IMG/VR virus record: IMGVR_UViG_2706794686_000006
DNA from: a virus
Lineage: Duplodnaviria > Heunggongvirae > Uroviricota > Caudoviricetes
Length of the DNA: 4,420 bases
Direction: 5' to 3' (one strand)
The position numbers and the translations under genes are program-made. Positions 1 to 4,420 of the stretch are shown here, piece by piece (position 1 is the stretch's first letter; each line of letters starts with the position of its first letter). The notes under the pieces are model-generated. The model was not told where the DNA came from, made no database searches, and saw nothing but the letters and a program-made list of their open reading frames with translations.

Positions 1-51
1 GGGGAATATCTCCCCGGCAGCCTTCAGGGAAAAATATCATCAGATGGCTGC

Positions 52-405
52 TTAAAAAAAGAACAAATGGTAGTGTCCGCTATTGCCAGTACACCTCAAT
101 TGCTCTGCGGCTTCGCTCAGAGCTGGCGTATGTTCCCGGCCTACTGATTCACACAGGTAATCAACGAAACCGGACACCAGTTTTCGTTCGCGAGGCGTGA
201 TCGCCCCACCGACCGGAGTCCAGTAATCGAAACCCAGTTGCAGGAGTTTGAAAAAACGCTTGTGGAATGCGTAGTTACACACACGCTTAAAGTCTGCGTG
301 TATCCACTCACCTATTTTGATTTGATGCAGAAAATCGCAACTCTCCGGCGTCGCCGGGAGAAGTAATCCGGAAGAGGTTTGTTTGACCAGTTGTATATGT
401 GCCAT
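52..405 (-). CDS. hypothetical prophage protein, about 117 aa (MAHIQLVKQTSSGLLLPATPESCDF...)
   Basis: Open frame on the minus strand ending at TAA (plus 52-54). The first ATG is at 405-403 with GGAG about 7 nt upstream. The track start at 447 is a TTG overlapping the upstream stop, so I prefer ATG 405. No family recognised. Confidence 0.55.
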   Translation of the reverse strand: MAHIQLVKQTSSGLLLPATPESCDFLHQIKIGEWIHADFKRVCNYAFHKRFFKLLQLGFDYWTPVGGAITPRERKLVSGFVDYLCESVGREHTPALSEAAEQLRCTGNSGHYHLFFF

Positions 406-443
406 CGGCTTTCTCCGGTGGCACGGTGTTACACAGCAGGAGT

Positions 444-731
444 TCAATCCTGCTCAAGATTGTAGATGAGTTTATTCTTCAGCAAAAGCAGAAAACCAGC
501 CTTAAAACCAATCTCTTTCAAAACCCGTAATGATGTGACAAATTCGTCCTCACGCAAAATAAAACCGTCCGTCAGAAGTCCATTACAAAAATAAAATAAC
601 ACAGCACCGCTCTTCCTTTGTTGAGATTGCAAACATCTAATGCGGCAATGGCTGACAATCGCTCCATTCTCAACGCGCACAGCATAGAGGCCATTTTCAC
701 TAAAAATTTCACGCAATTCTTCGATTTTCAT
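444..731 (-). CDS. hypothetical small protein, 95 aa (MKIEELREIFSENG...)
   Basis: Minus-strand ORF with ATG at 731-729, preceded by GGAAGGA about 8 nt upstream; stop TGA at plus 444-446. Same orientation as and closely spaced with neighbouring genes. No family recognised. Confidence 0.55.
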   Translation of the reverse strand: MKIEELREIFSENGLYAVRVENGAIVSHCRIRCLQSQQRKSGAVLFYFCNGLLTDGFILREDEFVTSLRVLKEIGFKAGFLLLLKNKLIYNLEQD

Positions 732-3081: not shown

Positions 3082-3918
3082 CTACTTAACAACCCTCGAA
3101 TGGCTAACATTCGGACGCCAGCTCTCCCAGTTAAAATTCACCCAGCGNNNNNNNNNNNNNNNNNNNNNNNNNNNNNNNNNNNNNNNNNNNNNNNNNNNNN
3201 NNNNNNNNNNNNNNNNNNNNNNNNNNNNNNNNNNNNNNNNNNNNNNNNNNNNNNNNNNNNNNNNNNNNNNNNNNNNNNNNNNNNNNNNNNNNNNNNNNNN
3301 NNNNNNNNNNNNNNNNNNNNNNNNNNNNNNNNNNNNNNNNNNNNNNNNNNNNNNNNNNNNNNNNNNNNNNNNNNNNNNNNNNNNNNNNNNNNNNNNNNNN
3401 NNNNNNNNNNNNNNNNNNNNNNNNATTCGCAAACGAGCATTTACGGTGCAACGGCTGGATGCCTGAGCGATTCNNNNNNNNNNNNNNNNNNNNNNNNNNN
3501 NNNNNNNNNNNNNNNNNNNNNNNNNNNNNNNNNNNNNNNNNNNNNNNNNNNNNNNNNNNNNNNNNNNNNNNNNNNNNNNNNNNNNNNNNNNNNNNNNNNN
3601 NNNNNNNNNNNNNNNNNNNNNNNNNNNNNNNNNNNNNNNNNNNNNNNNNNNNNNNNNNNNNNNNNNNNNNNNNNNNNNNNNNNNNNNNNNNNNNNNNNNN
3701 NNNNNNNNNNNNNNNNNNNNNNNNNNNNNNNNNNNNGGCGCGAACAGGCCCTGGTATTCATTGGCGATGCTGTGTCGAATCACCTGCTCAGGTGTAAAAC
3801 CCTGCTGACGGAATTTTTCCAGTTCCCGTATCGCCCCGTTAGCGCCCTGCTCCGTTCGAATCGGTTTTCGCAATGCCTGTCTGAACCGGACCCACTCATG
3901 CCAGAGTGTTTCCGGCAA
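3082..3918 (-). CDS. C-terminal portion of a replication-initiator/replisome-organiser-like protein; middle is N-masked; probably not an independent gene
   Basis: The visible 60 codons (3918 to 3739) read LPETLWHEWVRFRQALRKPIRTEQGANGAIRELEKFRQQGFTPEQVIRHSIANEYQGLFA. From memory this resembles the conserved C-terminal domain of phage replication proteins (W..F...R...P.T......L..F...G......V..SI.N.W.GLF). The nominal start is TTG with no SD, and the frame is open upstream to 3984. Stop TAG is at plus 3082-3084. Continuity across the two N-blocks cannot be verified. Confidence 0.45.
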   Translation of the reverse strand: MPETLWHEWVRFRQALRKPIRTEQGANGAIRELEKFRQQGFTPEQVIRHSIANEYQGLFAXXXXXXXXXXXXXXXXXXXXXXXXXXXXXXXXXXXXXXXXXXXXXXXXXXXXXXXXXXXXXXXXXXXXXXXXXXXXXXXXXXXXXXXXXIAQASSRCTVNARLRXXXXXXXXXXXXXXXXXXXXXXXXXXXXXXXXXXXXXXXXXXXXXXXXXXXXXXXXXXXXXXXXXXXXXXXXXXXXXXXXXXXXXXXXXXXXXRWVNFNWESWRPNVSHSRVVK

Positions 3919-3950
3919 CCAATCGGGCAGCTCAATAGCCTCCGGCTCGA

Positions 3951-3957
3951 ATTTTTT
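3951..3957 (-). other. A_AAA_AAU heptamer in frame C, at the frame C to frame B break (A6 run)
   Basis: The minus strand reads cta aaa aat tcg in frame C (L K N S). Frame B, at -1 relative to it, reads tct aaa aaa ttc gag and continues into the conserved C-terminal domain. Confidence 0.4.
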
Positions 3958-3997
3958 AGACGCTCGTTTTTGGCGAGGGGGAGATCAGTATTTAGAT

Positions 3998-4015
3998 CTT
4001 CCTCTTCCTCTTCCT
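3998..4015. repeat. perfect tandem hexamer (CTTCCT)x3; on the minus strand (AGGAAG)x3
   Basis: Read directly: cttcct cttcct cttcct at 3998-4015. In minus frame C it encodes EEEEEE; on the plus strand it produces the poly-Ser tail of the spurious 3100..4032 ORF. Confidence 0.9.
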
Positions 4016-4018
4016 CTG

Positions 4019-4060
4019 GTAACGCTTTTTGATCCGTTTGTGTAACGCTGGCAGCGTTAC
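4019..4060. repeat. cluster of GTAACGCT motifs including a 19-bp perfect palindrome (iteron- or operator-like)
   Basis: GTAACGCT occurs at 4019-4026 and 4042-4049, and its reverse complement AGCGTTAC at 4053-4060. The span 4042-4060 (gtaacgctg g cagcgttac) is a perfect inverted repeat with 9-bp arms. Degenerate copies lie at 4087-4091 (GTTAC) and 4102-4106 (GTAAC). The direct copies are 23 bp apart. Confidence 0.5.
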
Positions 4061-4070
4061 CTTTTCGTTT
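4042..4070 (+). terminator. candidate plus-strand intrinsic terminator (8-bp stem, 3-nt loop, then CTTTTCGTTT)
   Basis: The palindrome 4042-4060 can fold as an 8-bp stem with loop GGC in plus-strand RNA and is followed by a T-rich tract at 4061-4070. The minus-strand version is not followed by U residues. No convincing promoter was found upstream, so this is tentative. Confidence 0.3.
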
Positions 4071-4087
4071 CAGTTCGCGTATTTTTG

Positions 4088-4351
4088 TTACTCGCTCGTT
4101 TGTAACCGCCCGTTTTTTTTAGAGCTTTTTCCGTTATGACGTTCAAAGTTAGGTAGAGAAAGCCCTCCGTCATTTTCGACCAGCCATCCAACCTGAATTA
4201 ACGCATCAGCAAAACCAGACATAAAAGTGATGCGATCTATTGCACTTTTTGTAACGCCGCGAGCGTTACAATCTGCATTACCGTCTATCATTTGTTGATC
4301 CGCCCATGCCCAGAAGCGAATAACCTGAGGTAGCCTGAGTTTAACGGACAC
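4088..4351 (-). CDS. 87-codon ORF, possibly the N-terminal DNA-binding segment of the same replication-initiator-like gene
   Basis: Minus-strand ORF starting at GTG 4351, with AGGAAGGA immediately upstream at poor spacing; an internal ATG lies at 4291. It ends at TAA (plus 4088-4090). The translation (FWAWADQQMIDGN...ADALIQVGWLVENDGGLSLPNFERHNGKSSKK) loosely resembles N-terminal domains of phage replication initiators; this is a weak call made from memory. Confidence 0.45.
   Translation of the reverse strand: MSVKLRLPQVIRFWAWADQQMIDGNADCNARGVTKSAIDRITFMSGFADALIQVGWLVENDGGLSLPNFERHNGKSSKKNGRLQTSE
4112..4118 (-). other. A_AAA_AAC heptamer in the zero frame of the 87-codon ORF, at the frame A to frame C break (within an A8 run)
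   Basis: The minus strand reads tct aaa aaa aac ggg in the ORF frame (S K K N G). The -1 frame entered from this heptamer is open for 112 codons (4118 to 3783). Confidence 0.4.
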
Positions 4352-4389
4352 TCCTTCCTGAAATAGAATGGCATCAGAAGGAGCTAATA

Positions 4390-4420
4390 ATGAGCAGAAA
4401 AACCCAACGTTACTCTAAAG
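4390..4420 (+). CDS. 5' end of a divergently oriented gene (MSRKTQRYSK...), runs off the window
   Basis: ATG at 4390 is preceded by GAAGGAG (4377-4383) with a 6-nt spacer, a strong translation-initiation context. Only 10 codons are visible, so identity is unknown. Confidence 0.3.
   Translation, partial: MSRKTQRYSK

What the first reader, a model, noticed from the sequence alone, without database searches (positions are those of the whole stretch)
3919..4351. Replication-initiator-like gene split over three reading frames, with both breaks at A_AAA_AAY heptamers
The N-terminal ORF (frame A, 4351 to 4088) stops at TAA. The next 112 codons are open only in frame C (4118 to 3783), which has no start codon. 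The conserved C-terminal domain is in frame B, open from 3984 with only a TTG and no SD. Both A to C and C to B are -1 shifts. At each junction the incoming frame reads a canonical -1 slippery heptamer: A_AAA_AAC at 4118-4112 and A_AAA_AAU at 3957-3951. Reading through both gives a continuous, protein-like sequence: ...NGKSSKK-KRAVTNERVTKIRELKRKGNAASVTQTDQKALPEEEEEEDLNTDLPLAKNERLKN-KFEPEAIELPDWLPETLWHEWVRF... Three explanations are possible: homopolymer deletion errors in the A8 and A6 runs, a genuinely decayed prophage replication gene, or programmed -1 ribosomal frameshifting. Two obligatory shifts would make a programmed mechanism inefficient, so error or decay is the more parsimonious reading, but the identical heptamer class at both junctions is worth testing.
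Basis: partly seen in the sequence, partly recalled or inferred. Interest (0 to 1): 0.65.

Follow-up and report, generated by a model that had tools for sequence, protein, structure and literature searches.

The report
Decayed prophage replication gene in Shigella
The three-frame "gene" is the dead remnant of a Rac-type prophage replication-initiator gene in Shigella sonnei, broken by an IS600 insertion, a two-base expansion of an A-run and a 10-bp deletion; it is an ordinary pseudogene, not a programmed frameshift.

Summary
The cause is gene decay.

The unmasked window is 100% identical to Shigella sonnei chromosomes. The gene is a YdaU/lambda-O-like prophage replication initiator (phrog_2509). 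It is one 262-codon frame in E. coli, S. flexneri, Salmonella, Klebsiella and isolated phages.

The S. sonnei copy has three lesions relative to a near-identical E. coli allele:
- **IS600 insertion:** a 1264-bp IS600 sits after codon 36 with a 3-bp target duplication.
- **A-run expansion:** A6 became A8 at 4113-4120. This is an insertion of two bases, not a deletion, and it is what creates A_AAA_AAC.
- **10-bp deletion:** it lies between TCCCCCT direct repeats at about 3976-3983, roughly 25 nt upstream of the second heptamer.

The second heptamer is an unchanged ancestral Lys-Lys pair (AAA AAA).

The exact junction-plus-A8 ORF is indexed in 481 blocks of assemblies (492 contigs), and 8 of 8 loci inspected carry all three lesions, so it is not a sequencing error. 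Homologues show no two-frame arrangement, there is no significant stimulatory structure, and the remnant has no start of its own. Interest is low.

The parts
4326..4420 (+). Left end of an IS600 copy (IS3 family). The terminal inverted repeat TGAGGTAGCCTGAG starts at 4326 and the orfA ATG is at 4390. The window ends inside the element.
   Evidence: The stretch is 99% identical to regions annotated 'IS3-like element IS600 family transposase'. In S. sonnei locus L003 the full element is 1264 bp with TGAGG...CCTCA ends.
4323..4325 (-). One copy of the 3-bp target-site duplication (GGT on the gene strand) made by the IS600 insertion into codons 36/37 of the initiator gene.
   Evidence: L003 reads ...GGGAAGGT|IS600|GGTTATTCGC..., whereas the intact gene reads GGGAAGGTTATTCGC.
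3737..4325 (-). 3' remnant of a YdaU / lambda-O-like prophage replication-initiator pseudogene, from codon 37 onward. It continues into the masked N run below 3737.
   Evidence: Apart from the two indels it differs from the intact 262-codon E. coli gene by one synonymous substitution. Its fragments hit phrog_2509 'replication initiation protein' at profile positions 34-102 and 180-244.
4088..4351 (-). Its GTG and first codons are IS600 terminal-repeat sequence; the rest is initiator codons 37-105 followed by an out-of-frame tail and TAA.
   Evidence: The exact protein is deposited as a 'putative bacteriophage protein [Shigella sonnei]' on 492 contigs.
4113..4120 (-). A8 tract. This is lesion 2, a +2 expansion of a conserved in-frame A6 (Lys-Lys), and it is what creates the A_AAA_AAC heptamer.
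   Evidence: Alignment A1. The run is A6 in E. coli, Klebsiella and Salmonella homologues. No record among 5,426 complete E. coli genomes reaches 99% identity, so none has A7, A8 or A9. It is A8 in 8 of 8 S. sonnei loci.
3976..3982 (-). The surviving copy of the TCCCCCT direct repeat. This is lesion 3: one repeat plus spacer (TCCCCCTAAA, 10 bp) has been deleted, which is the true second frame break.
   Evidence: Alignment A1. Present in 8 of 8 S. sonnei loci. No full-length E. coli match lacks the 10 bp.
3951..3957 (-). AAAAAAT. This is an unmutated ancestral Lys-Lys codon pair (AAA AAA T) of frame B, not a lesion and not the frame break.
   Evidence: Identical in intact homologues. It is in frame at nt 481 of the intact gene.
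3997..4016 (-). GAGGAA hexamer repeat encoding the acidic linker (EEEEEE). Its copy number varies in frame among S. sonnei assemblies.
4042..4060 (.). Palindrome GTAACGC-N5-GCGTTAC, copy inside the gene. It is a candidate initiator-binding site or origin element.
4251..4269 (.). Palindrome GTAACGC-N5-GCGTTAC, second copy inside the gene.
1..98 (+). Right end of a second IS600 copy in the same orientation. It bounds the other side of the prophage fragment.
   Evidence: 98 of 98 nt are identical to the IS600 end next to the gene's 5' fragment in L003.

Best explanation
Window 4325-3737 (minus strand) is the non-functional remnant of the replication-initiator gene of a Rac-like cryptic prophage in Shigella sonnei. 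The gene belongs to the YdaU / lambda-O-like family and has an N-terminal domain, an acidic linker and a DnaT-like C-terminal domain.

Three independent mutations destroyed it:
1. IS600 transposed into codon 36/37. This separated the body of the gene from its promoter, ribosome-binding site and start codon.
2. Slipped-strand mispairing lengthened an in-frame A6 (Lys-Lys) to A8, shifting the frame and giving a TAA stop 9 codons later.
3. Slippage or recombination between two 7-bp direct repeats (TCCCCCT) removed 10 bp, shifting the frame again.

Because +2 and -10 do not sum to a multiple of three, the ancestral reading frame is spread over three frames. The two 'slippery heptamers' are by-products: one is the lesion itself, and the other is an ancestral AAA AAA pair seen from the wrong frame.

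Shown here: the identity of the gene, the three lesions, and their fixation in S. sonnei. Inferred: the mutational mechanisms, and that no functional initiator is made.
For: **Source.** All five unmasked blocks of the window match S. sonnei loci L003/L004 exactly. The 87-aa junction ORF is named Shigella sonnei by its sources.

**Gene identity.** The intact E. coli allele hits phrog_2509 end to end with E=1e-89. Isolated phages Rac and vB_EcoS-673R7 carry it as a single 262-aa 'ydaU' / 'DNA replication protein O'. Residues 170-262 resemble DnaT, PDB 2ru8, E=9.5e-5. A DnaC-like ydaV gene follows it.

**Lesions.** Alignment A1 shows A8 versus A6 and the 10-bp deletion. The IS600 is 1264 bp with a GGT duplication, and the 36-codon 5' fragment lies on its far side. 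Otherwise there is only one synonymous difference in 684 nt.

**Not an artefact.** The ORF is indexed in 481 blocks of assemblies. In 8 of 8 loci, from contigs of 55 kb to 4.9 Mb, A8, the deletion and A6 are all present.

**Family is single-frame.** 17 homologues at 59-99% identity align colinearly, with S-K-K-R-A nearly invariant. A6 is conserved in Klebsiella and Salmonella DNA. 1198 proteins match at E<=1e-20, and all 13 near-full-length hits at >=89% identity listed are 262-290 aa.

**Independent decay elsewhere.** Other lineages carry frameshifts at other sites of the same gene: P0089 at the second A-run and P0097 at the C5 run.

**Context.** IS600 is among the five IS that expanded in all Shigella species examined, and Shigella reference genomes each have >=199 pseudogenes (PMC7373316).
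Against: - Nothing here measures expression, so a low level of read-through product from the A8 tract cannot be excluded.
- A rare S. sonnei allele with A9 exists (in frame, one extra Lys) without the IS600 at codon 36. The order of events is therefore unresolved: A6->A8->A9 or A6->A9->A8. The tract may have been in frame for some time in the S. sonnei ancestor.
- The last ~100 nt of the gene are masked in the window itself. They were read only in the identical S. sonnei loci.
Confidence: 0.95

Rival explanations
1. Programmed -1 ribosomal frameshifting at A_AAA_AAC and A_AAA_AAU joins the three frames into one functional initiator.
For: Both heptamers are canonical and in phase for the incoming frame. 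A weak 5-bp hairpin starts about 5 nt after the first heptamer.
Against: - Homologues are single-frame with A6 at both positions, so no two-frame arrangement is conserved.
- Heptamer 1 is created by the mutation itself. Heptamer 2 is an ancestral Lys-Lys pair.
- Shifting at heptamer 2 would leave 8 out-of-frame residues (AKNERLKN) in place of the 11 ancestral residues NPPRQKRASKK.
- The 80-nt stretches downstream of each heptamer fold no better than shuffles: z -1.2 and -1.95, with 28 and 8 of 200 shuffles folding as well or better. At the second site the only real stem lies about 35 nt away.
- No GGAGG-like element lies within 25 nt upstream of either site (read directly).
- The upstream frame has no genuine start, because it is cut by IS600.
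Confidence: 0.01
2. The frame breaks are homopolymer sequencing or assembly errors in this one assembly.
For: One break is in an A8 homopolymer, a classic error site. A few S. sonnei contigs show A9.
Against: - The exact ORF that depends on both the IS600 junction and the A8-induced stop is indexed in 481 blocks and 492 contigs.
- 8 of 8 loci from fragmented and multi-megabase assemblies agree at A8, at the deletion and at A6.
- The second break is a 10-bp deletion, not a homopolymer miscount.
- The A9 contigs are a distinct allele with a different IS600 insertion site, seen in 3 contigs from about 9 samples.
Confidence: 0.01
3. Non-programmed leakiness: RNA-polymerase or ribosome slippage on the A8 tract produces a small fraction of frame-corrected product, and this partly suppresses lesion 2.
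For: From established knowledge, long A or T runs cause transcriptional slippage in E. coli and Shigella, and A_AAA_AAC is intrinsically shift-prone. The A-tract is length-polymorphic in S. sonnei, A8 or A9.
Against: Even if slippage occurs, the product would lack the first 36 residues and a real start, and it would still run into the 10-bp deletion. No function could be restored. Nothing here measures slippage.
Confidence: 0.03
4. The three segments are separate small genes with their own starts.
For: Gene callers annotate the 87-aa ORF as a protein. A TTG at 3918 opens a frame-B ORF.
Against: The segments are colinear pieces of one 262-aa protein in all homologues. The 87-aa ORF starts inside IS600. 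Frame C has no start codon, and the TTG at 3918 has no Shine-Dalgarno sequence and falls mid-domain.
Confidence: 0.01

Closest known systems
YdaU / lambda-O-like prophage replication initiators (phrog_2509). Examples: 'ydaU' of Escherichia phage Rac MN652886 and 'DNA replication protein O' of vB_EcoS-673R7.
   Same: The E. coli allele that matches the window apart from its lesions is about 96% identical in protein to these phage genes. The gene order is the same: repressor, cro, ydaT, initiator, DnaC-like ydaV. The same internal palindromes are present.
   Different: The window copy is interrupted by IS600, frameshifted twice and cannot encode the protein. It is a pseudogene of this family, not a working member.
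IS- and indel-driven pseudogenisation in Shigella (reductive evolution with IS1/IS2/IS4/IS600/IS911 expansion; Hawkey et al. 2020, PMC7373316).
   Same: There is an IS600 insertion with a 3-bp duplication, plus small slipped-strand indels, in a dispensable cryptic-prophage gene. The lesions are shared by every S. sonnei locus inspected.
   Different: Nothing material. This is one more instance of the phenomenon.
Programmed -1 frameshift sites of dnaX and IS3-family transposases (A_AAA_AAG plus stimulators).
   Same: The class of slippery heptamer (A_AAA_AAN) is the same. A genuine example, A_AAA_AAG in the orfA/orfB overlap of IS600, sits just outside the window.
   Different: Here there is no conservation of the two-frame layout, no significant stimulatory structure or upstream Shine-Dalgarno-like element, and no functional upstream ORF. 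The heptamers arise from a mutation and from an ancestral Lys-Lys pair.
Lambda ori inside gene O (iterons within the initiator's own coding sequence).
   Same: Three copies of a 19-bp palindrome lie at conserved positions in and just upstream of the initiator gene across E. coli, Salmonella and Klebsiella.
   Different: The sequence motif is different, and the copies are about 200 bp apart rather than clustered. Binding or origin activity has not been tested. This is a side observation, not the finding.

Membership tests
YdaU / lambda-O-like phage replication initiator (phrog_2509) | End-to-end sequence homology to the family profile | tested here: met
   The intact allele covers residues 1-262 against profile 1-277 with E=1.2e-89. 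The window fragments match profile positions 34-102 and 180-244. They are colinear with 17 homologues.
YdaU / lambda-O-like phage replication initiator (phrog_2509) | Position in the replication module, directly upstream of a DnaC/IstB-like helicase-loader gene and downstream of cro/ydaT | tested here: met
   Searches show ydaV (PF01695/PF00308) immediately downstream. In the window this region is mostly masked, but the unmasked island at 3425-3473 matches exactly within that ydaV gene in L003.
YdaU / lambda-O-like phage replication initiator (phrog_2509) | One uninterrupted open reading frame with its own start | tested here: not met
   There is an IS600 insertion after codon 36, a +2 frameshift and a -10 frameshift. 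The window copy is therefore a pseudogene of the family.
Programmed -1 ribosomal frameshift site | X_XXY_YYZ heptamer in phase with the incoming frame | tested here: met
   AAAAAAC at 4118-4112 and AAAAAAT at 3957-3951 are both in phase. However, 30% of shuffles give such a heptamer at site 2, and site 1 is the mutation itself.
Programmed -1 ribosomal frameshift site | Two-frame arrangement and slippery site conserved in homologues | tested here: not met
   All intact homologues are single-frame. A6 is read in frame as Lys-Lys at both positions.
Programmed -1 ribosomal frameshift site | Stimulatory element: a stable downstream structure at 5-9 nt and/or an upstream Shine-Dalgarno-like sequence | tested here: not met
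   Folding of the 80 nt downstream of each site gives z -1.17 and -1.95. The only solid stems lie more than 35 nt downstream. There is no GGAGG-like motif in the 25 nt upstream of either site.
Programmed -1 ribosomal frameshift site | Frameshift product demonstrated | not testable with these tools
   This needs a reporter assay or proteomics.
IS600 (IS3 family) | Near-identity to annotated IS600, a length of about 1.26 kb, TG...CA terminal inverted repeats, a 3-bp target duplication, and orfA/orfB with A_AAA_AAG | tested here: met
   The window end is 99% identical to annotated IS600. In L003 the element is 1264 bp with TGAGG/CCTCA ends, a GGT duplication and A7G at position 316. Only 95 nt of this copy lie in the window.
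Homopolymer sequencing artefact | Allele not reproducible across independent assemblies or technologies | tested here: not met
   A8, the 10-bp deletion and A6 are present in 8 of 8 independent S. sonnei loci. The dependent ORF is indexed in 481 blocks.

The most novel reading that the evidence does not exclude
The A-tract (A6 in E. coli; A8 or A9 in S. sonnei) behaves as a length-variable switch, and slippage on A8, whether transcriptional or ribosomal, still yields some initiator-related polypeptide with a residual role. One conceivable role would be acting at the conserved GTAACGC-N5-GCGTTAC palindromes of this or a co-resident Rac-like prophage.
Probability: 0.02. Interest if true: 0.3.

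Novelty: already known. Interest (0 to 1): 0.08.

Why it matters
It matters mainly as a caution. Two 'canonical slippery heptamers' at two frame junctions look suggestive, but both follow trivially from how the gene broke. An expanded in-frame AAA AAA tract is itself a heptamer. Any ancestral AAA AAA pair also looks in phase from the +1-displaced frame.

The locus is one more example of IS600-driven and slipped-strand decay of cryptic prophage genes in Shigella sonnei. It has no implication for recoding biology.

The only mildly useful by-product is a conserved palindrome triplet in and before the initiator gene. It may mark the binding sites or origin of this Rac-like replication module.

Tried and rejected
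- **Species-representative genomes.** An exact-pattern scan for the A8 allele found nothing. The window's source is not in that collection, or is masked there, so the scan gave no information.
- **Pfam.** No family matched the intact protein or any fragment.
- **NCBIfam.** The only hit was a sub-threshold DnaT match to the last 19 residues. PHROGs and PDB were used instead.
- **Literature.** A search for ydaU/ydaV replication returned no papers.
- **P0002 look-up.** It worked after a second homology search returned the protein.
- **ORFs running through N runs.** I rejected these, including the 278-aa ORF at 3082..3918. The masked runs do not preserve true length; the offsets change by +7, +179, -13 and -20.
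- **The 18 E. coli records at >=99% identity to the deletion-spanning query.** None of them appears among the full-coverage hits, which all carry the extra 10 bp. I take them to be partial alignments on one side of the deletion. This was not checked record by record.

Full report
**1. What is in the sequence**

- Frame A runs from a GTG at 4351 to a TAA stop at 4090-4088.
- Frame C is open from 4118 to 3783. It is preceded by TAA at 4121-4119 and ended by TGA at 3782-3780.
- Frame B is open from 3984, preceded by TGA at 3987-3985.
- AAAAAAC (4118-4112) and AAAAAAT (3957-3951) are each in X_XXY_YYZ phase for the incoming frame.

The raw observation is therefore accurate.

**2. Where the window comes from**

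The 87-aa frame-A ORF exists verbatim in public data as 'putative bacteriophage protein [Shigella sonnei]'. It is found on 492 contigs and is indexed in 481 blocks of assemblies.

All five unmasked blocks of the window match S. sonnei loci L003 and L004 exactly. The N runs of the window do not preserve the true lengths of what they mask; the offsets change by +7, +179, -13 and -20. Any ORF reading through them is therefore meaningless.

**3. What the gene is**

Megablast against 5,426 complete E. coli genomes finds the region in hundreds of Rac-like prophages as a single 789-nt gene. It lies between ydaT and the DnaC-like ydaV, and one record annotates it 'phage replication initiator YdaU family protein'.
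- The intact protein matches phrog_2509 'replication initiation protein' end to end, E=1.2e-89.
- It occurs as one 262-aa gene in isolated phages: Escherichia phage Rac as 'ydaU', and vB_EcoS-673R7 as 'DNA replication protein O'.
- Its C-terminal ~90 residues resemble the DnaT C-terminal domain, PDB 2ru8, E=9.5e-5.
- Pfam has no model for it.

A family search returns 1198 proteins at E<=1e-20. Seventeen homologues of 59-99% identity from E. coli, S. flexneri, Citrobacter, Salmonella, Klebsiella and Enterobacter align colinearly in one frame. The S-K-K-R-A motif at the first 'junction' is nearly invariant.

**4. The three lesions**

Alignment of the window with two intact E. coli alleles and inspection of the S. 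sonnei loci show the following.

- **(a) IS600 insertion.** Homology to the gene stops at window 4325. Positions 4326-4420 are the left end of IS600, 99% identical to annotated IS600. In L003 the element is 1264 bp, has TGAGG...CCTCA ends and is flanked by a GGT duplication. The first 36 codons of the gene (MASNWIKLEV...) lie on its far side.
- **(b) A-run expansion.** The A-run at 4113-4120 is A8, where all intact genes have A6 read in frame as Lys-Lys. This includes Klebsiella and Salmonella homologues at about 60% protein identity. It is a +2 expansion, and it automatically produces TCT AAA AAA AAC, i.e. the 'slippery' A_AAA_AAC.
- **(c) 10-bp deletion.** Intact genes read GATC-TCCCCCTAAA-TCCCCCT-CGCC. 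The window reads GATC-TCCCCCT-CGCC, having lost 10 bp between 7-bp direct repeats; the surviving copy is at 3976-3982. Frame B matches the ancestral protein from 3981 onward (PPRQKRASKKFEPEAIELPDW...). The real second break is therefore about 25 nt upstream of the AAAAAAT heptamer.

Apart from these lesions the remnant differs from the E. coli FDAARGOS_944 allele by one synonymous base in 684 nt. The decay is therefore recent.

**5. Are the heptamers more than chance?**

No. In the intact gene the two motifs are simply the two in-frame AAA AAA pairs, at nt 310 and 481. From the +1-displaced phase any such pair reads as an in-phase heptamer.

Site 1 is the mutation itself. For site 2, 30% of 5000 dinucleotide-preserving shuffles of the 204-nt zone in which a C-to-B shift would be stop-free contain at least one in-phase heptamer.

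The 80 nt downstream of each site fold no better than shuffles, z -1.17 and -1.95, and the solid stems lie more than 35 nt away. The stable stem downstream of site 1 is one of the DNA palindromes described in section 9. Neither site has a Shine-Dalgarno-like element within 25 nt upstream.

**6. Is it a sequencing error?**

No. All eight S. sonnei loci retrieved carry A8, the 10-bp deletion and A6. They come from contigs ranging from 55 kb to 4.86 Mb.

No complete E. coli genome reaches 99% identity to the A8-spanning query, so none has A7, A8 or A9. None of the full-length matches lacks the 10 bp.

**7. A nuance on the A-tract**

A minor S. sonnei allele exists in three contigs from about nine samples, L011-L013. 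It has A9, which is in frame with one extra Lys, and no IS600 at codon 36. L013 instead runs into an IS600 end after '...CAAAAAGCG', at about codon 136, and the other two contigs stop a few bases short of that point.

The tract is thus A6, A8 or A9 across lineages. The two IS600 insertions appear to be independent and later than the first expansion. Whether A8 arose from A9 or the reverse cannot be decided here. Either way these are real mutations in an already dispensable gene.

Other lineages show independent frameshifts at other positions of the same gene. P0089 is shifted at the second A-run and P0097 at the C5 run. This is the signature of neutral decay rather than of a conserved recoding signal.

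**8. Verdict**

This is a decayed prophage replication-initiator gene. It fits the well-documented IS expansion and pseudogene accumulation in Shigella (PMC7373316). Programmed frameshifting, sequencing error and a 'three separate genes' model are each contradicted by specific tests above.

Low-level slippage on A8 is physically plausible from general knowledge. It cannot restore function, because the start and first 36 codons are severed and the 10-bp deletion remains.

**9. Side observations**

- The window is bracketed by two directly oriented IS600 copies, at 1-98 and 4326-4420.
- A 19-bp palindrome, GTAACGC-N5-GCGTTAC, occurs at 4042-4060 and 4251-4269, with 0 expected by chance. In intact genes of E. 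coli, Salmonella and Klebsiella it is present in three copies at conserved positions: about -33, +148/160 and +367/424 from the start. It is encoded as the recurrent 'NAxxxVT' peptide motif. This suggests initiator-binding sites or an origin inside the initiator gene, by analogy with lambda ori in gene O. It was not tested further.

Noticed in passing
window 4042-4060 and 4251-4269; L001 2866-2884, 3058-3076, 3265-3283; L014 1468/1649/1925; L015 1468/1661/1868: A 19-bp palindrome, GTAACGC-N5-GCGTTAC, is present in three copies at conserved positions (about -33, +150 and +370-420 from the start codon) in E. coli, Klebsiella and Salmonella homologues that share only about 60% protein identity. 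None is expected by chance. In the protein it appears as a repeated 'NAxxxVT' motif. It is a candidate set of initiator-binding sites or an origin inside the initiator gene, like lambda ori in O.
   Followed up: partly
window 1-98 and 4326-4420: The window is bounded by the right end and the left end of two IS600 copies in the same orientation. Together they bracket a 4.2-kb prophage fragment carrying the initiator remnant, ydaV, DUF977, a hypothetical gene, queH, hokD, rem and a DUF1367 gene. The DUF1367 ORF (52-447, minus strand) runs into the IS at position 98.
   Followed up: partly
L011 2064, L012 1870, L013 1740 and the tail of L013: Rare S. sonnei contigs carry an in-frame A9 allele (SSKKKRAV) with no IS600 at codon 36. 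In L013 an IS600 end is inserted after '...GGATCAAAAAGCG', at about codon 136. The A-tract is therefore polymorphic (A6, A8 or A9), and IS600 hit this gene at least twice.
   Followed up: partly
window N runs 801-1064, 1165-1438, 3148-3424, 3474-3736: The masked runs do not have the length of the sequence they replace. Offsets to the identical S. sonnei locus change by +7, +179, -13 and -20. Reading frames and distances across them are unreliable, and the long ORFs listed through them are artefacts.
   Followed up: yes
window 3997-4016; L003-L010 about 6320-6360: The GAGGAA hexamer repeat encoding the acidic linker differs in copy number among S. sonnei assemblies, adding 18 or 24 nt in four multi-megabase assemblies. 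This is either a real in-frame VNTR or an assembly difference.
   Followed up: no
P0089, P0097 (proteins): Other E. coli-group genomes carry independent frameshift alleles of the same initiator gene at other sites. P0089 is shifted at the second A-run ('RASKNSSRR...') and P0097 at the C5 run ('NPLAKNERLKNSS...').
   Followed up: no
L007 and L010, 3176-5962: In some S. sonnei assemblies the far side of this IS600 is not the gene's 5' fragment. It is a truncated ydaV from a second Rac-like prophage whose initiator is the 285-aa DUF1376 type. This points to IS600-mediated recombination between two prophages.
   Followed up: no
L003 4763-6026 (IS600), position 316 on the transposase strand: IS600 carries its own A_AAA_AAG motif in the orfA/orfB overlap, the genuine IS3-family programmed -1 frameshift site. 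It lies just outside the window.
   Followed up: no
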